Below are positions 18,666-63,200 of a DNA stretch of 64,000 nucleotides, in pieces. How positions within the stretch are numbered: the stretch's first letter is position 1; each line of letters opens with the position of its first letter. Below the pieces are notes generated by a model. The model did not search any database, had not been told where the DNA came from, and saw only the letters and a list, made by a program, of their open reading frames with translations. Source of the stretch: a virus (taxonomy: Duplodnaviria; Caudoviricetes); the IMG/VR virus record IMGVR_UViG_3300005805_000082, positions 4,826 through 68,825 of that record. One strand, given 5' to 3'. Position numbers and translations under genes: made by a program.

Positions 18666-19098
18666 AGCAGGAAAAGAACTGATTAAATCCTATGAAGGCC
18701 TCAGGCTGAAGAGTTATAAGTGCTCAGCCGGAAAGGACACCATCGGATTTGGCGTAACCTTCTACGAAGATGGGCGCCCCGTTAAGCCTGGAGATACCAT
18801 TACTCTGGAAAGGGCTCACAAGTTATTCGACTTCATTATATCCAAGTTCACTAACAAGGTTAAGAGTTTAGTCAAGACAGAGATCAATGACAATCAGCTG
18901 TCGGCACTGGTAAGCTTTGCCTACAACTGTGGCATAGCTAACCTAATGAACTCAACCTTACTTAAGAAAGTAAACGCAAATCCAAACGACCCAACCATAG
19001 AAGACGAGTTCAAGAAGTGGACCAAGGCAGGAGGGAAGCAGCTCGGGGGGTTGGTAAAAAGAAGAGAAGCAGAAGCAAAACTATACTTTAATGTTTAA
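18649..19098 (+). CDS. GH24 phage lysozyme (endolysin)
   Basis: EGLRLKSYKCSAGKDTIGFG, ALVSFAYNCG and C-terminal GLVKRREAE motifs. Confidence 0.92.
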   Translation: MKMINEAGKELIKSYEGLRLKSYKCSAGKDTIGFGVTFYEDGRPVKPGDTITLERAHKLFDFIISKFTNKVKSLVKTEINDNQLSALVSFAYNCGIANLMNSTLLKKVNANPNDPTIEDEFKKWTKAGGKQLGGLVKRREAEAKLYFNV

Positions 19099-35835: not shown

Positions 35836-35864
35836 AAAAACCCAGGTGTAGAAACACCCGGGGT
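35836..35864 (-). terminator. Intrinsic terminator after tRNA-Trp
   Basis: Minus strand ACCCCGGGTGT-TTCT-ACACCTGGG followed by TTTTT. Confidence 0.6.
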
Positions 35865-35884
35865 AATTTTTAAAAATGAGTCAG

Positions 35885-35956
35885 CACCCATGTGGGGACT
35901 CGAACCCCCATCTCTGCTTTTGGAGAGCAGCATTCTTCCAATTGAACTACACGGGC
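35885..35956 (-). tRNA. trnW: tRNA-Trp(CCA)
   Basis: Cloverleaf: GCCCGTG/CATGGGT acceptor, CTGCT-CTCCAAA-AGCAG anticodon arm, GGGG-TTCGAGT-CCCC T arm, G73; CCA end not encoded. Confidence 0.92.
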
Positions 35957-36001
35957 AAAACCCCTTCAACGTGGACACGTTCGGGGGTATAAACACACAC
36001 A

Positions 36002-36325
36002 TTAGTATAGCTTTTTCACTTCCTCTCTTCTCCATTCTTCCTTGATGTAGGGTTCAATGTCATCCCATAGGAAATCCTGGAGGAGGTCTTTAATTTTTTG
36101 TTCGGTTCGGTATCCTTCATCCCATCGCCTTTGCTCGTCTATAAATCGCCAAGAATAATCTTGGTTGTGGATGAGGTCAATCAGTTCAGTCAGTTGCTCA
36201 TTTGCCATAAGTGTGTAAAAAATTTCGGTTTGGTGATAGGTGAGGTGTAGTTTTCTAGCATGGTCTATGGCGAATCTGCCGACCACGATGCCCGTCCTCT
36301 CATAATGGTCAATTGCCTGATTCAT
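36002..36325 (-). CDS. Hypothetical early protein
   Basis: Coupled operon. Confidence 0.6.
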   Translation of the reverse strand: MNQAIDHYERTGIVVGRFAIDHARKLHLTYHQTEIFYTLMANEQLTELIDLIHNQDYSWRFIDEQRRWDEGYRTEQKIKDLLQDFLWDDIEPYIKEEWRREEVKKLY

Positions 36326-36504
36326 GAAATCAGGAGGGCTACCTTAACGATATTGGATAGGGTTTTGTCTTGCTCCATGCATTCCTTAAGCATGGTGACC
36401 AAGTCCTTGCCTTTGCCTTGTACCTTGAAGGTGTACTTGTCGCCATTTTCTTCTAGCAAAAGGAGGGCGGGTACTTTCTTGGGTGCTGCTTTCTTCGTTG
36501 CCAT
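36322..36504 (-). CDS. Hypothetical early protein
   Basis: Coupled operon. Confidence 0.6.
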   Translation of the reverse strand: MATKKAAPKKVPALLLLEENGDKYTFKVQGKGKDLVTMLKECMEQDKTLSNIVKVALLIS

Positions 36505-36505
36505 G

Positions 36506-36712
36506 TTATTTGATTTTGAGTGTTATCGGTTCAATAAGGTCATTTTGGAGCATCATCTCAACGATCTTGAGGTATAGTTGGTAGAATGCTTTCGGGTCGT
36601 TGTCCCAACGTGAGCCGTCACCATAGATGAGGTGATGGGGGACGATGTAATTGTTTCTCTCGAATGTAGCCACGATGGTATCGTAGCATTCGTTGAAGGT
36701 TTGCTTGGTCAT
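36506..36712 (-). CDS. Hypothetical early protein
   Basis: ATG 36712 preceded by ACAC-rich leader. Confidence 0.55.
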   Translation of the reverse strand: MTKQTFNECYDTIVATFERNNYIVPHHLIYGDGSRWDNDPKAFYQLYLKIVEMMLQNDLIEPITLKIK

Positions 36713-36722
36713 GTGTGTGGTT

Positions 36723-36950
36723 TTATTTGGTGATTTTATCTTCGATTGCGTAGTCAATTCCTAACCATATTTGCTCATAAGTAGCCTCATTTTTTAAGGC
36801 ATTTTCCAGTATCTCATATGCCTCCTCATCGGAGCATTCATGCTTGAACTTGACATCATCAATATGCCATAGGTTTGTTACATAGTAGCCATACTTTTTT
36901 AGAACTGCCCTTGCGTTGTCAATCTCTTGTTGCTGTGTTTCTAAATACAT
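36723..36950 (-). CDS. Hypothetical early protein
   Basis: LWHIDDVK...SDEEAYEILENAL; ACAC leader. Confidence 0.65.
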   Translation of the reverse strand: MYLETQQQEIDNARAVLKKYGYYVTNLWHIDDVKFKHECSDEEAYEILENALKNEATYEQIWLGIDYAIEDKITK

Positions 36951-36968
36951 GGTGTGTTTTTTATTTAG

Positions 36969-37220
36969 TTAAGAAAATTTTATCTCATCATATGCTCTCA
37001 TGTCAACCTCATCAAGATTATTCAGTAATAGCTCTTGACCATCCTCTACAACATCTTCGGGTAGATAGCCTACTTCTTGGAGAATGTCCTCAATAGAGAT
37101 TGAAAATGATCCGCTTTCTTTCAGTTTTGAAAGGATGCCATGTCGGTAGAAAAACTCCTTTTGGACTTCATGGTCAAAATACCAATCGATAAATCTTTTT
37201 TTGTTGATTAACAGTTTCAT
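36969..37220 (-). CDS. Hypothetical early protein
   Basis: ACAC leader, acidic. Confidence 0.6.
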   Translation of the reverse strand: MKLLINKKRFIDWYFDHEVQKEFFYRHGILSKLKESGSFSISIEDILQEVGYLPEDVVEDGQELLLNNLDEVDMRAYDEIKFS

Positions 37221-37238
37221 GGTGTGTGTTTTGATGAG

Positions 37239-37281
37239 GAACTGCCACGGGACTCGAACCCGTGTACAACCATTGCAGTTC
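37239..37281 (-). ncRNA. tRNA minihelix (acceptor stem plus T arm only)
   Basis: GAACTGC-10 nt-CACGGG-TTCGAGT-CCCGTG-GCAGTTC, intergenic. Confidence 0.65.
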
Positions 37282-37288
37282 GGGGGTA

Positions 37289-37438
37289 TTATTGGTTGTC
37301 CCTATAGTACTCCGCAATAGCAATCAGCCTATCAACCAATTGCTCTAGGGTTTCTTTACCTAAAGAGGCAACTTCCTCTTTAGTTTCAAACTCATCTCCC
37401 GATAAGTCTAAAATCGCATCAATCATTTTGTTTTTCAT
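37289..37438 (-). CDS. 49-aa acidic early protein (not in ORF track)
   Basis: MKNKMIDAILDLSGDEFETKEE...; ACAC leader. Confidence 0.6.
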   Translation of the reverse strand: MKNKMIDAILDLSGDEFETKEEVASLGKETLEQLVDRLIAIAEYYRDNQ

Positions 37439-37477
37439 TGTGTGTGGTTTTGAGGTTTAAAAATCTATTCTAGAGAG

Positions 37478-37561
37478 TTACTGACAAAAGGGGTCTTGGA
37501 GTTGACCGACAACATAGGCAGCGACTAGGAGTGCTGCAACTAGGCGAAGGATTGATTTCAT
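37478..37561 (-). CDS. 27-aa membrane peptide
   Basis: MKSILRLVAALLVAAYVVGQLQDPFCQ; ATGA overlap with upstream peptide. Confidence 0.5.
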   Translation of the reverse strand: MKSILRLVAALLVAAYVVGQLQDPFCQ

Positions 37562-37638
37562 TTTCTTCTTGGTTTGAGTGTTACAAAAAAGATGACGTTC
37601 GCTAGGATAAAACCTACAGAGGTGCTGAAGACTATCAT
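37558..37638 (-). CDS. 26-aa membrane peptide
   Basis: MIVFSTSVGFILANVIFFVTLKPRRK. Confidence 0.45.
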   Translation of the reverse strand: MIVFSTSVGFILANVIFFVTLKPRRK

Positions 37639-37644
37639 GCCGTA

Positions 37645-37980
37645 CTAGTTGAAGAGTGTTTTGGCTGTATCAAATGTGGCAAAACGTTGGTCATAGTTCG
37701 GGAGGTCATACTCAAAGCCGAATGCAGTGTCTATGTAGTCATCAACGCTAGAGAATGTATTGTATGAGTACTCAACATCTCCATGGTCATAATGGAAGGA
37801 AACTACATGACCGTTGGAAAGCCTCAAGAAGAGGTGATAGAACCCGCCTCCTGAACCATACCCTACAACCTCCTCTACATCGTTGTGAAGGTTGAGGTCA
37901 AGGATTTGAGGGTTGTACTCTGCCATAGTTTTGGTGAGTGACTGCTCATCTAGGAGAATAGAAAACTGATGCTTTGTCAT
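37645..37980 (-). CDS. Hypothetical acidic early protein
   Basis: ACAC leader; starts 19 nt after the hammerhead cut site. Confidence 0.65.
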   Translation of the reverse strand: MTKHQFSILLDEQSLTKTMAEYNPQILDLNLHNDVEEVVGYGSGGGFYHLFLRLSNGHVVSFHYDHGDVEYSYNTFSSVDDYIDTAFGFEYDLPNYDQRFATFDTAKTLFN

Positions 37981-37993
37981 TGTGTGTGTTATT

Positions 37994-38045
37994 GGTTAAG
38001 ACCTCCCGTAGGAGGTTTCGCCTAGTGAAGGCTCATCAGTTAACC
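37994..38045 (-). ncRNA. Type I hammerhead ribozyme
   Basis: GGUUAA-CUGAUGA-GCCU(UCACU)AGGC-GAAA-CCUCC(UACG)GGAGG-UC/UUAACC; complete core and three stems. Confidence 0.93.
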
Positions 38046-38239
38046 TTTGTGGACTCAATTAGGGAATAATACTTGTCATACAGTTCATTGAAAATATCTT
38101 GAGCCTCTTCGGTGTATTTTGCACCGCCATCGCATTCCTCCCAAATAACAATAGAGTCCTGCCATTTTTTTTGCAATTCGTAGTCTGCTAGTTCGGATGC
38201 CAATTCAACTGCGTTGATGGTTAGTTCATGTAAGTTCAT
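38036..38239 (-). CDS. 67-aa acidic early protein flanked by ribozymes
   Basis: MNLHELTINAVELASELADYEL...; ATG 38239 has an ACAC leader (track start 38272 lies in the twister). Confidence 0.7.
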   Translation of the reverse strand: MNLHELTINAVELASELADYELQKKWQDSIVIWEECDGGAKYTEEAQDIFNELYDKYYSLIESTKVN

Positions 38240-38259
38240 TGTGTGTGTGATTTGTGTGT

Positions 38260-38322
38260 AACCTCTCTGCATTCATAGAGACTTGAGACTCTCACCCCTG
38301 GACGGGCGTGGTTGCATTAGTT
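38260..38322 (-). ncRNA. Twister ribozyme (type P1, with P3)
   Basis: P1 AAC/GUU, UAA, P2 UGCA/UGCA, P3 CAC-CCC/GGG-GUG, P4 AGAG/CUCU with loop UCUCAAGU, pseudoknots AC:GU and CUC:GAG, catalytic GA. Confidence 0.88.
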
Positions 38323-38561
38323 TCTCACCCTTTAGCCTCACGACTACGCTGAAAACCTAAGTGATAGATCAAAGTAGGTTGCGAAGGGCGGGTTACTCGC
38401 ACATCCTAGAGGATGCCATGTCGTTTACTGATTGTGCCTACTCTCAAACGATTTACATCGTGTGCTTTTCTTCGTGTGTGGGTTGCCTGAGGGCAGAGCC
38501 GTTTATCACAAAGGTTCAACTAGACAATGTTGCTTTCACTCCGTATTTTCAAAGAACTGCA
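38323..38561 (-). ncRNA. Structured 5' leader RNA of early transcript with boxA-like element
   Basis: Nested stems; GTTCTTTGAAAA at 38546-38557. Confidence 0.55.
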
Positions 38562-38747
38562 ATAGCAATAACTAAAACAATAATATCGAGAGCTAAATTC
38601 TAGAGAAAATATTTAACCGCAAAATGTGGATTAAAATACAGCGACAAAAAACGGTAGACAAATCCTCTACAAACCAGTCATAACAACAACGAAAACGTTT
38701 TCGTGATTTTATGTAAAAATGTTTTTCAGTAGATATTGTGTAAATCT

Positions 38748-39017: not shown

Positions 39018-39047
39018 GTACTTTCAAATGGGGCAGTTCGGGGGAAA

Positions 39048-39371
39048 CTACAGTCTTCTATTGAGCAGATATCTCCTAACACCTGAGAGATAGTCTCTAC
39101 CCTTATAGGTAAGAGAATACACAAGACCTTCACGCTTTATAAATTCAATATCACAGAGAAACTTCAGCGACCGATTCACATACACGTAGGAGACGGTATA
39201 AAAGCATGAGGCAGCGTGTGAGAGGATAGTGGTAACCCTAGGGGTATTCAAATAACGTATGGCATAAAGCACAAAGGTCTCACACTGATTGAGGGGACGG
39301 GATGACCCATACTTACGGGAGTAGAGATCATTGGCTTTGCCGTAGAGGAAAACGTACTTGTCTATCTTCAT
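39048..39371 (-). CDS. Winged-helix (MarR-like) DNA-binding protein
   Basis: LN..ETFVLYAI...VNRSLKFL....FIKRE...YSLT.KGR. Confidence 0.65.
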   Translation of the reverse strand: MKIDKYVFLYGKANDLYSRKYGSSRPLNQCETFVLYAIRYLNTPRVTTILSHAASCFYTVSYVYVNRSLKFLCDIEFIKREGLVYSLTYKGRDYLSGVRRYLLNRRL

Positions 39372-40044: not shown

Positions 40045-40105
40045 AGTTTATCTCTTTTGGTTTTGGCGTAGTATATCACCGTTATTCTGGCGTTAATTAA
40101 ACTTG

Positions 40106-40248
40106 TAGAACAGGCAGGACTCGAACCTGCATGGTGGCTTTCCGAGAAGCGTCCTCCGATAACTCACGTTACCCCGACCACTATCCACCGCCTTGTTTAG
40201 CTGCGTCTACCACGACCGGGGACACCCCGATCCTTCCGCCACTGTTCT
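40106..40248 (-). ncRNA. Expanded tRNA-like RNA (Leu-type D arm, no canonical anticodon arm)
   Basis: AGAACAG/CTGTTCT acceptor, TGGCGGAA...TGGTAGACGC D arm with inserted hairpin, GCAGG-TTCGAGT-CCTGC T arm, A73; 143 nt. Confidence 0.7.
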
Positions 40249-40330
40249 ATGTGCCTGTCTTTCCAAGCTGTCAGATAAGTTCTCCAGCTTAATGGACTGG
40301 ATGCCATGTAGGGAGATTATCATTTCTCCG

Positions 40331-40414
40331 CAGAACAGAAGGGAGTCGAACCCTTGTAAGTAGTGCACTACCTATCTACATCGTAGACTGCGGACCACTT
40401 TCCGCAACTGTTCT
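40331..40414 (-). ncRNA. tRNA-like RNA with long variable arm and closed anticodon hairpin
   Basis: AGAACAG/CTGTTCT acceptor, GCGGA/TCCGC D stem, GTCTAC-GAT-GTAGAT, AGGTAG-TGCA-CTACTT, AAGGG-TTCGACT-CCCTT, G73; 84 nt. Confidence 0.7.
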
Positions 40415-40591
40415 ATGTCCCCACTTTCGTGGGCACTTCTGGATTTGCTCCTGAGTCTGCAAACTCACCTGTATAAGACCTACAAATGGGAGTCATACAG
40501 CGAAGATAAACGGCCAACTCTCTAAAATATTTTGTTATCATCAAATGTTCATAAGTTTCAAATCATAATAGATAGCTTCCTAAATTCGCCA

Positions 40592-60224: not shown

Positions 60225-63200
60225 ATGGCTTTCAATAGACAAAGGAGAACAAGCGACATAGCCAATGTAGTTGTAGCTGATGCTAGTAGGAACGTAACGC
60301 TTCCTGCTGATCTGACTGTCACTGCCTTGGTTAATGCAGGTTTGCTCAAGGGTAATGCTGCAGGTAAGCTTGTTGCTGCTGTAGCAGGCACAGACTTCCA
60401 ATCTCCTATAAGCCTAACTACTACAGGCACATCAGGAGCGGCAACCTTTGTTGGGGGAACTCTAAATATCCCACAATATCAAGCTCAAGGAAGCTATATA
60501 ACTTCTTTGACTGGCGAGGCAACCGCTTCTGGTCCGGGAGCTGCTTCTGTAACTCTGTCTAATGCAGCTGTTATTGGCAAGGTGCTTACAGGTCTTAACA
60601 TAACAGGAGGAAGTGTTGTTGCTACAGATACAATACTGACAGCCTTTGGAAAGCTTCAGAATCAGGTAAACGGTTTAACTGGTGGTGTAACTTATCAGGG
60701 TACATGGAACGCATCAACCAACACTCCAACTTTAACTAGCTCTACAGGAACAAAGGGATACTACTATGTAGTTTCTGTTGCCGGATCTACAAACTTAAAT
60801 GGCGTAACCGACTGGAAGCTTGGGGACTGGGCAATATATAACGGAACGTCATGGGAGAAGGTAGACAATACGGATGCTGTTGTTTCGGTAAATGGCTTTA
60901 CTGGCGCTGTAAGTTTAACCAGCGATAACGTATCAGAAGGTTCCACAAACTTATACTTTACTAATACAAGAGCTAGGTCCGCTATCTCATTGACAACTAC
61001 AGGCAGCTCGGGGGCATCAACTTACAACAGTTCTACAGGCGCACTGAATATTCCAAACTATACACTTGCAGGATTAGGCGGTCAGGCACAGCTGAACGGA
61101 ACAGGCTTTGTGAGGATGTCTGGTACTACGGTTTCATATATAAGTGGAACCAGTGCTCAGTTTGTAAAAGCTGACGGATCGTTGGACTCTACTGCCTACA
61201 CAGCCAACACGGGTACTGTAACTTCTGTGGCTTTGGCTACGGGTACAAGTGGAACTGATGTTAACGTATCAGGATCTCCGATTACTACTTCTGGTACTAT
61301 TACTCTTAATATCCCTGACGCATCGTCAACTGCAAGGGGTTTGATTACTACGGGAACACAGACTATCGTAGGTCAGAAGACCTTATACTCCGGCACAACC
61401 GTATTTGATTCCAATCAGGTTTCTACTTTAATTGAGGGAAGGGCAGGAGGTACATTGTATGGAGGGATCTTCTTTGGGTCTTTTATTCAGTTCAATGCAT
61501 ATACTTCTGCTTCAAGTGGATTTCTTTGGAAGAACGGAGCCAGTACAAACATAATGACTCTTGACCAGTCTGGAAACCTAGGGGTTAACACACTGGCAGG
61601 TACTGGGACTAGGATGGTGGTTGCCAGCAGTACGGGGGTATTAAGCACCCAAGCTATAACTACTGGTACAGTAACAAGTGTAGCTTTGGCCACAGGTTCT
61701 ACAGGTACTGACATCAACGTATCAGGATCTCCCATCACATCTTCAGGAACTATCACCTTAAACATACCTACAGCTTCAGGGTCAGCTCGGGGGCTTTTGA
61801 GTTCTGCTGACTGGACTACATTCAACAATAAACAAGCTGCCTTAACCAACCCAGTTACAGGTACAGGTGCATCGGGTCAGGTAGCCTACTTCAATGGTAC
61901 TACTACAGTTACAGGAAACAATAACTTCTTCTGGGATATAACAAATAGTAGGCTTGGTATAGGTATAAATACTCCTGTTCAAAAACTTCATGTATACGGA
62001 ACAACTAATTCAAGAGTTGGTGTAGAGGGAACAACAAACTATTCAGCGTTTCAAAATATAAATACTTCTGGTAATATCTACTGGGGAATTGATAATAGTA
62101 CGGGGTCTGATTTTACAGGAGTTGCTTATGCAAGGTTTATTTATAGTGAGGGAGCATATCCATTAATAACATATGTTAATGGTGCTGAACGTATGCGTAT
62201 TGCATCTACAGGTGCAGCTACTTTTAGCTCTACAATAGCTTCAGGAGGTGATATTACGGCTCCATATGATACTACTGATAAGCTAATCGGTATCAGATTC
62301 TCTGCTACATATTACAATGGATTTGTTTTAAATGGAACTACTCGTAGCACTGGTATTGTGTCAAGAAGTGGAGATGCAAGTGATTACATTTGGTTTGGCA
62401 CGAATGCTGCTACTGAGCGTATGCGCATTACTAATGGCGGAAACCTATTGGTGGGAACTACAAATGATCAGGGTTATAAATTAGATGTCAATGGGAAAAG
62501 TGCATTCAGAGGTGCTATGGCACTTACATCAGGAGCAACAGGTTTACCTGCAACTGCTGGTGGTGATTTGATTATTGGTGGTGGTTACTTATCTCCAACA
62601 TCAGGTAGGATTTATTTTGGTGATGGAACAGGATGGAAGCTTTATATATCAAAAAGACTTAGCTCAGTTGATACTGATCTTTTCACCTTCCAAGATAATG
62701 GTAATTTTGGTATAGGCACGAATAGTCCTGCAACACAGCTTCACTTATCTGGTTCTTCAGTACTGCGGACTACAAACACAGCAAACACTTCTGGCTTTGA
62801 CTTCGGTCTTATTGGTGGTGTATCAGATGCGACAGGATATATATACAATAGGGCAAATGCAGCATTAGTATTTGGTGTTAATAATGCCGAGCAAATGCGT
62901 ATTACTACTACTGGTCTTGGTATTGGTACTGCAAGTCCATCTTATAAACTTGATGTTGTCAGTGGAAATGGAGATGGTATTGTTTATAGAACTTCAACAA
63001 GGTCTATAGGCATAGGTCAAATATCCAGCGAACCATCATTGTTCTGGGGAAGCGGAACCCCACTAACATTCTTTAGCGGTTCTGAGTTAATGCGTATCAC
63101 ATCTGACGGTAATGTTGGTATAGGTACTACAAGCCCAAATTACCCATTACAAGTAAGAAGAGCAGGAGGTGCTGGTTCTTTAGGAATAAGTATAGATGGT

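What the first reader, a model, noticed from the sequence alone, without database searches (positions are those of the whole stretch)
35836..38561. Early operon punctuated by four different RNA-processing elements
In transcription order: boxA-bearing leader, twister, one gene, hammerhead, four genes, tRNA minihelix, six genes, tRNA-Trp, terminator. All are on the coding strand and at gene boundaries. Inference: one antiterminated transcript is cut by self-cleavage and by host RNase P/Z into sub-messages with defined ends, a phage version of tRNA punctuation. The minihelix and tRNA-Trp regions also share an upstream TACCCCCGAAC (37278-37288 and 35979-35989).
Basis: partly seen in the sequence, partly recalled or inferred. 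Interest (0 to 1): 0.75.

Follow-up and report, generated by a model that had tools for sequence, protein, structure and literature searches.

The report
Phage operon punctuated by RNA-cutting elements
A run of small genes in an uncultivated phage (probably of Bacteroidota) is separated by a twister ribozyme, a hammerhead ribozyme and a stripped-down tRNA look-alike; related phages swap these elements at the same junctions, so all of them most likely just cut the long message into short ones, a layout known for hammerheads since 2011 and extended here to tRNA mimics.

Summary
The twister and type I hammerhead score below Rfam's cut-offs, but compensatory changes in relatives show they are genuine. 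The 43-nt minihelix belongs to an uncatalogued family: 82 unique copies in about 25 viral contigs, 11 of 13 pairs covarying. Copies sit 5-9 nt after a stop codon and about 19 nt before the next ATG. In relatives the operon head carries a type III hammerhead (11 operons), a twister (2) or a minihelix (1). Two gene families follow a hammerhead in one phage and a minihelix in another. This supports "punctuation by RNA cleavage", though no RNA data exist and RNase P/Z cleavage is inferred.

Three points need correcting:
- The shared TACCCCCGAAC is an instance of a genome-wide 9-mer (30 copies against 1.4 expected).
- tRNA-Trp lies after a conserved operon-end terminator hairpin and is optional in relatives.
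- The boxA label rests on resemblance and conservation only.

Clustered ribozymes in prophage operons were published in 2011. I found no paper describing the exchange with minihelices, but this scan has already reported it on other phage DNA.

The parts
38689..38704 (-). 16-bp perfect palindrome (operator-like) at the start of the conserved leader or promoter region
   Evidence: Conserved in the window, L002, L013, L025 and L032. Its function was not tested.
38547..38557 (-). boxA-like motif GTTCTTTGAAA in the leader
   Evidence: An AGTTCTT(T) core is present in all 10 leaders examined, 186-402 nt upstream of the first element. The resemblance to rrn/lambda boxA is from textbook knowledge. Binding of NusB/E was not tested.
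38328..38392 (-). Conserved 3' domain of the leader, including the block GTAGTCNTGAGGCT at 38347-38334, directly upstream of the head ribozyme
   Evidence: Alignments. RNAalifold finds compensatory change in 10 of 28 predicted pairs among 5 leaders. Role unknown.
38259..38323 (-). Twister-P1 ribozyme; predicted cleavage between 38319 (U) and 38318 (A)
   Evidence: Rfam RF03160 at 47.5 bits, E 2e-7. P2, P3 and one loop pseudoknot pair covary with the L017 twister, and a second pseudoknot pair differs from the consensus on both sides in both copies.
38036..38239 (-). Gene 1 (67 aa, no known family); its TGA stop lies inside the hammerhead core
   Evidence: ORF list. No PHROG hit.
37994..38045 (-). 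Type I hammerhead ribozyme; cleavage between 38000 and 37999 leaves a 19-nt leader before the next ATG
   Evidence: Complete core. Six homologous copies are 100% paired, with compensatory change in 7 of 16 pairs. Chance rate is 0.02 per window.
37289..37980 (-). Four genes (111, 26, 27 and 49 aa)
   Evidence: The micro-ORFs and the 49-aa gene have homologues in L002 and L013.
37239..37281 (-). tRNA-like minihelix: 7-bp acceptor-like stem, 10-nt connector, 6-bp stem with the 7-nt loop TTCGAGT. Predicted RNase P site is 37282/37281; predicted RNase Z-type site is about 37238/37237.
   Evidence: Family alignment A3 is 96.6% paired, with 11 of 13 pairs covarying. Model R1 scores it 77 bits. There are 104 further hits in viral contigs.
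36002..37220 (-). Five ORFs (83, 75, 68, 60 and 107 aa); the C-terminal 68 aa of the last is a separate conserved gene in relatives
35957..35987 (-). Operon-end hairpin followed by UUUU, abutting the tRNA 5' end
   Evidence: -12.3 kcal/mol in the window. The homologous hairpins in L013 (-19.3, z -4.9) and L002 (-16.8, z -3.95) are clear terminators.
35884..35956 (-). tRNA-Trp (CCA); no encoded 3' CCA
35841..35862 (-). Intrinsic terminator after the tRNA
   Evidence: 9-bp stem with 6 G-C pairs, followed by TTTTT.

Best explanation
This is a modular RNA-punctuation system of a clade of crAss-like phages, about 55-70 kb and probably infecting Bacteroidota.

A long conserved leader is transcribed first and is cut off by a self-cleaving ribozyme at the operon head. 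That ribozyme is a twister here and a type III hammerhead in most relatives. Both cut at their own 5' edge, so the first message begins with a folded 5'-OH ribozyme.

Between the small genes, either a type I hammerhead or a tRNA top-half mimic provides a cut. The hammerhead cuts at its own 3' edge. The mimic (minihelix) would be cut by the host's tRNA-maturation enzymes, RNase P at its 5' side and/or an RNase Z-type enzyme at its 3' side. Either way the upstream message ends in a stable structure and the downstream gene keeps a short CA-rich leader of about 19 nt.

The operon ends at a terminator hairpin. tRNA-Trp is optional cargo placed just behind a weakened copy of that hairpin, is made by read-through, and is released by RNase P.

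Shown here: the elements, their structures, their covariation, their placement and their exchange between relatives. Inferred: every cleavage event in vivo and the enzymes that act on the minihelix.
For: - **Real ribozymes.** The twister has E 2e-7. Against the L017 twister, P2, P3 and one loop pseudoknot pair change on both sides: that pair is C-G in the Rfam consensus, U-A here and A-U in L017. This fits the L4-L1/L2 double pseudoknot described in PMC6154101. The type I hammerhead has a full core, and stems II and III covary across 6 copies.
- **Minihelix family.** 96.6% of cells are paired, 11 of 13 pairs show compensatory change, and the covariation score is 0.71 against about 0.1 for slid controls. 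There are 82 unique copies. The loop is always 7 nt with an invariant central CG in 71 of 71 parsed copies, and 31 of 71 have a tRNA-type TTCGANT loop. The stacked helix is 12-13 bp in 63 of 71.
- **Placement.** The stop codon lies 5-9 nt before the stem in 55 of 71. The stem end lies 18-21 nt before the ATG in 57 of 71, with the mode at 19. The type I hammerhead cleavage site lies 19-20 nt before the ATG.
- **Shared grammar in 14 mapped operons**. The head element is a type III hammerhead in 11 distinct operons, a twister in 2 and a minihelix in 1.
- **Exchange at orthologous places.** The conserved leader block is followed by a twister (window), a type III hammerhead (L002) or a minihelix (L013). 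A 59-aa gene follows a type I hammerhead in L032 and a minihelix in L047 (79% identity). A 253-aa gene follows a type III hammerhead in L014 and a minihelix in L035 (92% identity).
- **Orientation.** All family hits in a locus lie on one strand, co-oriented with the genes.
- **Published precedent.** Clustered hammerheads flanking prophage genes cleave in vitro and in vivo (PMC3088659). tRNA-like t-elements direct RNase P/Z cuts at plant mitochondrial mRNA ends (PMC1920247).
Against: - No transcript data exist for this phage.
- RNase P/Z action on the minihelix is untested.
- The stacked helix is mostly 13 bp, not the 12 bp of tRNA.
- More than half of the loops (for example the AGCGAWA type) are not canonical T-loops.
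- The stems are 94% Watson-Crick, so the G.U against A.C test cannot show that selection acts on the RNA strand.
- The conserved C-rich 5' flank is part of a genome-wide DNA motif, so some flank conservation may have a DNA-level cause.
- The twister and both hammerhead types score below Rfam gathering scores. The L002 head hammerhead has a C at core position U4.
- Only two orthologous gene swaps plus the head slot were found, because the small genes turn over quickly.
- The window has only one minihelix, and several of its junctions carry no element at all.
Confidence: 0.6

Rival explanations
1. Only the ribozymes cut. The minihelices are not cleaved but act as structural insulators or stabilisers, either as a 3'-exonuclease block for the upstream cistron or as a fixed platform that keeps the downstream 19-nt leader unstructured for ribosome loading without a Shine-Dalgarno sequence.
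For: The distances to the stop codon and the ATG are very regular. Many loops are not T-loops and the helix is 13 bp. Several junctions in the window work without any element.
Against: Minihelices occupy the same slots as self-cleaving ribozymes, including in front of orthologous genes and at the operon head. The acceptor/T-arm geometry, the G-C closing pair (13 of 14 copies in A3) and the invariant loop CG are features that tRNA enzymes read.
Confidence: 0.15
2. The conserved junctions are mainly DNA-level features: recombination joints that let small gene cassettes shuffle between phages (as proposed for promoter-stem-loop cassettes of T4-type phages, or integron attC hairpins). The fold is selected in single-stranded DNA, or is not selected at all.
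For: Gene content between junctions is highly mosaic while the flanks are conserved. The 5' flank is a genome-wide strand-biased DNA 9-mer. In L032 a hammerhead sits behind the 5' flank and first bases of a minihelix, as if the interior had been exchanged. The wobble test does not exclude DNA.
Against: The interior shows strong compensatory change with an invariant loop CG and tRNA-type loops, which homology-driven recombination does not need. The elements are exchangeable with ribozymes, which act only as RNA. All copies are in sense orientation with fixed spacing to start codons. The two roles are not mutually exclusive.
Confidence: 0.1
3. The elements are selfish or decaying passengers (degenerate tRNA genes, ribozyme-bearing mobile sequences) with no role in phage gene expression.
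For: Presence or absence at a given junction varies between relatives. The window's 49-aa gene lacks the upstream minihelix that its orthologues have. tRNA-like relics occur elsewhere in the genome.
Against: Structure is maintained by compensatory change in 82 unique copies. Ribozyme cores are intact. The placement grammar is precise. Head ribozymes are present in nearly every operon.
Confidence: 0.05
4. The twister and hammerhead pair serves to excise a 319-nt RNA (38318-38000) with 5'-OH and 2',3'-cyclic phosphate ends, which an RtcB-type ligase circularises into a circular mRNA for gene 1.
For: The head ribozyme, one gene, type I hammerhead arrangement recurs in L032.
Against: Most relatives have a minihelix or nothing after the first gene, so the bracket is not conserved. 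No ligase gene was seen in the window. Perreault et al. looked for spliced or circular products from clustered hammerheads and found none (PMC3088659).
Confidence: 0.05

Closest known systems
Clustered hammerhead ribozymes flanking single genes or short gene blocks in prophages (Perreault et al. 2011, PMC3088659)
   Same: Several self-cleaving ribozymes lie on the coding strand between small, variable phage genes near an integrase. The proposed role is processing of a long phage transcript into gene-length mRNAs, and cleavage was shown in vitro and in E. coli.
   Different: This operon mixes classes (twister-P1, type I and type III hammerheads) with tRNA-like minihelices that outnumber the ribozymes. 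The operon head has a dedicated ribozyme behind a long conserved leader. The hosts are probably Bacteroidota. Every copy scores below Rfam's cut-offs.
Association of twister with hammerhead ribozymes near phage genes (reviewed in PMC6765202; RAGATH motifs)
   Same: A twister and a hammerhead lie a few hundred bases apart in a phage gene block. The review states that polycistronic processing has been suggested but not established.
   Different: Comparative exchange with a presumed RNase P/Z substrate gives an argument that plain cleavage is the selected function. No RAGATH family reached its gathering score: RAGATH-1-hammerhead scored 24.5 bits against 56.3.
Plant mitochondrial t-elements (Forner et al. 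2007, PMC1920247) and the tRNA punctuation model of animal mitochondria (review PMC3790967)
   Same: tRNA-like structures without decoding function sit at mRNA borders and direct RNase P and RNase Z to create mRNA 5' and 3' ends.
   Different: Those are organellar, with ends mapped experimentally. Here it is a bacteriophage, with a multi-copy family of minimal acceptor/T-arm helices (13 bp, 7-nt NNCGNNN loop), a C-rich 5' flank and a CTCA 3' flank. Ends are not mapped.
Theta (HDV-like) ribozymes next to phage tRNAs (PMC10879173)
   Same: Phage-encoded small ribozymes are functionally coupled to tRNA-type processing.
   Different: Theta ribozymes trim tRNA 3' trailers. Here ribozymes and tRNA mimics alternate as mRNA punctuation, and no HDV-like hit was found.
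RNase III processing sites of the phage T7 early polycistronic mRNA (textbook knowledge)
   Same: Conserved intercistronic hairpins cut an early phage transcript into hairpin-capped single-gene messages.
   Different: A different enzyme logic: a double-strand-specific nuclease against tRNA mimicry and self-cleavage.
boxA of rrn operons and lambda nut sites (textbook knowledge; not tested here)
   Same: A U-rich GYTCTTT motif lies early in a long leader and is conserved across relatives.
   Different: The 3' half of the motif varies. The host and its own boxA are unknown. The polymerase that reads this operon is unknown. The head ribozyme would detach the motif from the message.

Membership tests
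Twister ribozyme, type P1 (Rfam RF03160) | Score at or above the curated gathering score | tested here: not met
   47.5 bits against 67.2, with E 2e-7 for the window. The L017 copy scores 47.9 bits.
Twister ribozyme, type P1 (Rfam RF03160) | P1-P2-P4 stems with a U-A cleavage step after P1 | tested here: met
   The full-length model alignment places UAA at 38319-38317. P2 is UGCA/UGCA. P2 and the 3-bp stem change on both sides in L017.
Twister ribozyme, type P1 (Rfam RF03160) | Double pseudoknot between the terminal loop and the two internal loops | tested here: met
   Both positions that deviate from the consensus are matched by their partners (A-U for G-C; U-A for C-G). L017 has A-U at the second pair. 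The pairing scheme follows PMC6154101. The exact partners are my inference from complementarity.
Twister ribozyme, type P1 (Rfam RF03160) | Self-cleavage | not testable with these tools
   Needs in vitro transcription.
Hammerhead ribozyme, type I | Core CUGANGA, GAAA and UH at the three-way junction | tested here: met
   The core is CUGAUGA, GAAA, A15.1-U16.1 and C17 at 38000.
Hammerhead ribozyme, type I | Three stems, with stem I open and stems II and III capped | tested here: met
   The MFE fold gives exactly this. Six copies are 100% paired, with compensatory change in 7 of 16 pairs.
Hammerhead ribozyme, type I | Rfam gathering score for a hammerhead model | tested here: not met
   RAGATH-1-hammerhead scores 24.5 against 56.3; HH9 scores 15.2 against 52.
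Hammerhead ribozyme, type I | Self-cleavage, and tertiary contact between stems I and II | not testable with these tools
   Stem I is a plain 6-bp helix, and no loop-loop contact was identified.
tRNA (tRNA-Trp) | Cloverleaf with anticodon, above the curated score | tested here: met
   56.5 bits against 29; ARAGORN calls Trp(CCA).
tRNA-like processing signal (minihelix / t-element type) | Acceptor-like stem stacked coaxially on a T-arm-like stem-loop, maintained by covariation | tested here: met
   The window copy has 7 + 6 bp.
tRNA-like processing signal (minihelix / t-element type) | Canonical T-loop (TTCRANN) closed by G-C | tested here: inconclusive
   Met in the window copy (TTCGAGT). In the family only 31 of 71 loops are of that type. 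The central CG is invariant, and the closing pair is G-C in 13 of 14 copies of A3.
tRNA-like processing signal (minihelix / t-element type) | Cleavage by RNase P and/or RNase Z at its borders | not testable with these tools
   No RNA run was listed. Enzyme assays are needed.
boxA antitermination site | Match to the host's own rrn-leader boxA | not tested
   The host is unknown. No prophage copy was found in named genomes. The control genomes were not fetchable.
boxA antitermination site | Conserved position in the leader of related operons | tested here: met
   AGTTCTT(T) is present in 10 of 10 leaders.
boxA antitermination site | NusB/NusE binding and terminator read-through | not testable with these tools
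   -
Intrinsic terminator | G+C-rich hairpin followed by a U-run | tested here: met
   35862-35841. The operon-end hairpin 35987-35957 is weaker, at -12.3 kcal/mol with 4 U.

The most novel reading that the evidence does not exclude
The minihelices are genuine RNase P/Z substrates. This phage clade then uses self-cleaving ribozymes of three kinds and anticodon-less tRNA mimics as fully interchangeable punctuation marks. That would make simple mRNA punctuation the long-sought biological role of phage hammerhead and twister ribozymes. It would also be the first tRNA-punctuation system outside organelles, with the conserved junctions serving in addition as joints for shuffling small early-gene cassettes.
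Probability: 0.45. Interest if true: 0.8.

Novelty: new variant of a known kind. Interest (0 to 1): 0.62.

Why it matters
The biological role of the many hammerhead and twister ribozymes found near phage genes has been an open question since 2011-2014; the review PMC6765202 says "additional work is needed". Here ribozymes that differ in fold and chemistry, and a tRNA mimic that can only work through host tRNA enzymes, replace one another at the same junctions and leave the same length of leader. The only property they share is that they create an RNA end, which is a direct and testable argument for punctuation as the selected function.

The work also defines a large RNA family with no Rfam hit (alignments A3 and A4, model R1). 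It further shows that a whole clade of ribozymes falls just under Rfam's thresholds, so routine annotation misses it.

Tried and rejected
- **Cultured phages, DNA.** blastn of the operon against 50,697 cultured-phage records gave no match.
- **Small proteins.** PHROG search of the small proteins gave no family.
- **Leader pattern.** An exact leader pattern in viral contigs returned only the L002 contig.
- **RNA evidence.** No RNA holder was listed for the operon.
- **Host.** A scan of genome contigs with the minihelix flanks gave 120 or more stretches. None of the 100 that I ran through model R1 was a convincing family member: the only hit was one weak 27-bit match. So no prophage and no host were found.
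- **Real boxA for comparison.** The control genomes were not fetchable. A literature search for the motif together with "boxA" found nothing.
- **Wobble test (G.U against A.C).** Uninformative: the stems are 94% Watson-Crick, and 19 of 25 A.C cells sit at one junction column.
- **Gene clustering, first pass.** This found no mixed families because the longest-ORF rule started genes inside the elements. It was corrected.
- **Purely structural minihelix descriptor.** It gives many chance hits, so only the covariance model was used for counts.
- **Cultured relative.** Flavobacterium phage NC_055853.1, the nearest cultured relative by terminase (29% identity), has no minihelix. No experimental system was found.
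- **3101-aa virion protein.** Pfam gave nothing. PHROGs says only "virion structural protein", so whether the phage carries its own early RNA polymerase stays open.
- **Other ribozyme classes.** Hatchet, pistol, twister-sister and HDV-like were sought in about 260 kb of window and relatives. Nothing was found at E up to 0.05 in the relatives, or up to 1 in the window.

Full report
**What the window is.** The window is most of a 68.8-kb IMG/VR viral contig, about 62% complete. It encodes a crAss-type muzzle protein, a P22-like portal and a large terminase. A minus-strand arm carries an integrase, ParB, a primase-helicase, a YqaJ-type exonuclease and a C5 methylase. The nearest cultured relatives by terminase (29-31% identity) all infect Bacteroidota: Flavobacterium, Cellulophaga, Bacteroides and Tenacibaculum. 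That fits the absence of Shine-Dalgarno sequences and the CA-rich leaders before every ATG. The finding lies in the minus-strand arm, upstream of ParB.

**Checking the observation.**
- tRNA-Trp (35956-35884) and the terminator behind it (35862-35841) are unambiguous.
- The twister (38323-38259) aligns end to end with Rfam twister-P1 at 47.5 bits and E 2e-7 for the whole window, below the curated 67.2 bits.
- The hammerhead (38045-37994) scores poorly in Rfam. It nevertheless has the complete core, a 6-bp open stem I and capped stems II and III, and the upstream gene's TGA lies inside CUGAUGA. A descriptor of my own finds it once in the window against 0.02 hits per shuffled window. The MFE fold is exactly the three-stem junction.
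- The minihelix (37281-37239) folds as proposed with ensemble frequency 0.83.
- The gene counts are right, apart from the last block: five ORFs, or six only if an internal start is counted.

**Relatives.** A close relative (L002; ParB 83% identical) and a more distant one (L013) were found through neighbouring proteins. Both have the same long leader.
- In L002 the place of the twister is taken by a type III hammerhead. Four intergenic hairpins share the window minihelix's flanks.
- L013 has nine such hairpins, one of them at the operon head, and no Rfam ribozyme hit at E up to 5.

Fourteen elements from the three genomes align cleanly. On the proposed structure 96.6% of cells pair and 11 of 13 pairs show changes on both sides. 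The covariation score is 0.71 against about 0.1 when the partners are slid, and no shuffle reaches it.

A covariance model (R1) finds only the one copy in the window. The flank pattern retrieved 53 viral contigs and more than 120 metagenome stretches. In these R1 finds 104 and 46 further copies, usually 3-9 per operon.

**Anatomy of the family (82 unique copies, 71 parsed strictly).**
- The acceptor-like stem has 6-8 bp and the connector 10-17 nt, usually containing GG.
- A second stem of 5-6 bp is stacked on the 3' strand of the first, giving 13 stacked pairs in 47 copies and 12 in 16.
- The loop is always 7 nt with an invariant central CG. It is a tRNA-type TTCGANT in 31 copies and AGCGAWA or YTCGNNA in most others.
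- The closing pair is G-C in 13 of 14 copies of A3.
- The stem starts 5-9 nt after a stop codon in 55 of 71 copies. It ends 18-21 nt before the next ATG in 57 of 71, with the mode at 19.
- The type I hammerheads leave 19-20 nt between their cleavage site and the next ATG.

**The ribozymes are genuine.**
- *Type I hammerheads.* Homologues in L032, L058 and L061 (three copies) keep stem I and the core, while stems II and III change with compensation: 100% paired, 7 of 16 pairs.
- *Twister.* A second twister in L017 (47.9 bits) differs from the window's on both sides of P2 and of the 3-bp stem. The loop position that pairs with the 3' internal loop is C-G in the Rfam consensus, U-A in the window and A-U in L017. 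The second pseudoknot pair is A-U in both against G-C in the consensus. This matches the double pseudoknot between L4 and L1/L2 described for twister (PMC6154101), and it explains the sub-threshold score, because covariance models do not score pseudoknots.

**Grammar and exchange.** Ordered maps of 14 operons give the following sequence:
1. A conserved leader.
2. A head element.
3. Small genes separated by minihelices or type I hammerheads, with one to five genes per interval.
4. An operon-end hairpin with a U-run.
5. Sometimes a tRNA.

The head element is a type III hammerhead in 11 distinct operons, a twister in 2 and a minihelix in 1. The leaders are alignable up to a conserved block immediately 5' of the head element, whichever it is.

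After correcting gene starts, two gene families are preceded by different elements in different phages. A 59-aa gene follows a type I hammerhead in L032 and a minihelix in L047 (79% identity). A 253-aa gene follows a type III hammerhead in L014 and a minihelix in L035 (92% identity). The window's 49-aa gene has orthologues that carry a minihelix in front where the window has none.

**What this implies.** The property common to a twister, two hammerhead topologies and a tRNA top-half mimic is the creation of an RNA end.
- The head ribozymes cut at their 5' edge. The leader is discarded and the first message starts with a folded 5'-OH RNA.
- The type I hammerhead cuts at its 3' edge. The structure stays on the upstream fragment and the next gene gets a 19-nt leader.
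- A cut by an RNase Z-type enzyme just 3' of the minihelix would give the same two products, which is why I favour that side as the equivalent event. RNase P at the 5' side is equally plausible chemically.

The phage's own tRNA-Trp has no encoded CCA, so its host must have an endonucleolytic or exonucleolytic 3' pathway for CCA-less precursors. All of this is inference: no RNA run was listed.

1. *The shared motif.* CCCCGARC occurs 30 times in the window against 1.4 expected. 26 copies extend to CCCCCGARC, and 24 lie on the minus strand whatever the gene orientation, including inside plus-strand genes. So the motif shared by the minihelix and the tRNA regions is not a processing signal peculiar to them, although it does form the 5' flank of most minihelices.
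2. *tRNA-Trp.* Upstream of tRNA-Trp the motif is the 5' arm of a hairpin followed by UUUU that abuts the tRNA. The homologous hairpins in L013 and L002 are strong terminators (z -4.9 and -3.95). L013, L025 and L047 have no tRNA after theirs. The window's copy is weaker, at -12.3 kcal/mol with 4 U, so read-through into the tRNA is plausible. The tRNA is optional cargo: Trp also in L032, a CUA-anticodon tRNA in L040, and a tRNA-like RNA with a 64-nt insert in L002.
3. *boxA.* The boxA-like core is conserved in 10 of 10 leaders, which supports a function. Its identity as a Nus-factor site is untested. The polymerase that reads this operon is unknown, and crAss-like phages of Cellulophaga use a virion polymerase for early genes (my own knowledge). 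The head ribozyme would also detach the motif from the transcript.

**Comparison with what is known.** Perreault et al. 2011 described multiple hammerheads flanking single genes or short blocks in prophages near integrases. They showed cleavage in vitro and in E. coli and proposed processing of long phage transcripts (PMC3088659). A 2019 review still calls the purpose unsettled (PMC6765202). tRNA-like t-elements that direct RNase P/Z to mRNA ends are established in plant mitochondria (PMC1920247). I found no paper describing tRNA mimics exchanging with ribozymes in phage operons. This scan, however, has already reported that exchange on other phage DNA. I therefore file the finding as a new variant of a known kind: the principle is known, while this minihelix family, the dedicated head ribozyme behind a conserved leader, and the documented exchanges are new details.

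**Verdict.** Confidence in the processing model as a whole is 0.6. It is higher for the ribozymes and lower for the enzymes that act on the minihelix.

Noticed in passing
window, whole length (for example 749-756, 19041-19048, 39036-39043, 61785-61792): The 9-mer CCCCCGARC is about 20-fold over-represented: 30 copies of the 8-mer core against 1.4 expected. It is strongly strand-biased, with 24 of 30 on the minus strand, including inside plus-strand genes. It is also frequent in L002 and L013. This looks like a DNA-level motif of unknown role.
   Followed up: partly
window 40105-40415, minus strand: Two further tRNA-like RNAs lie in the non-coding head of the minus-strand arm. They have identical acceptor ends and T-arm motifs at 40352-40342 and 40127-40117. 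Neither is called as a tRNA by ARAGORN or Rfam.
   Followed up: no
window 39020-39048, minus strand: A truncated element follows the stop of ORF 39371-39048. It has the 5' flank and first bases of a minihelix but no 3' half. Similar half-elements occur at L013:1362 and L002:4052.
   Followed up: no
window 38328-38392 and 38420-38545, minus strand: The leader of about 230 nt between the boxA-like motif and the twister has conserved blocks and a partly covarying 3' domain (10 of 28 predicted pairs compensated among 5 leaders). It has no Rfam match and may be a structured leader RNA released by the head ribozyme.
   Followed up: partly
window 38689-38704: A 16-bp perfect palindrome is conserved in five relatives upstream of the leader. 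It resembles an operator.
   Followed up: no
window 37478-37638, minus strand: Two overlapping micro-ORFs (26 and 27 aa, hydrophobic) are conserved in L002 and L013, so they are probably real membrane peptides.
   Followed up: partly
L002:7634-7762: At the position of tRNA-Trp, the close relative has a tRNA-Leu-like gene (acceptor, D and T arms intact) with about 64 nt in place of the anticodon region. ARAGORN does not call it.
   Followed up: no
L040:13574-13652: A relative carries a tRNA with a CUA anticodon (a possible amber suppressor) downstream of its operon's last minihelix.
   Followed up: no
L002:5127-5182, L014:2846-2902, L020, L025, L032, L039, L040, L041, L058, L113, L164: All head type III hammerheads of the clade score 31-45 bits, just under Rfam's 48.5-bit cut-off, so standard annotation would miss them. 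The L002 copy has C in place of core U4.
   Followed up: partly
L032:4262-4285, minus strand: The type I hammerhead of L032 is preceded by the 5' flank and first bases of a minihelix, as if a ribozyme had replaced a minihelix interior by recombination within the flank.
   Followed up: no
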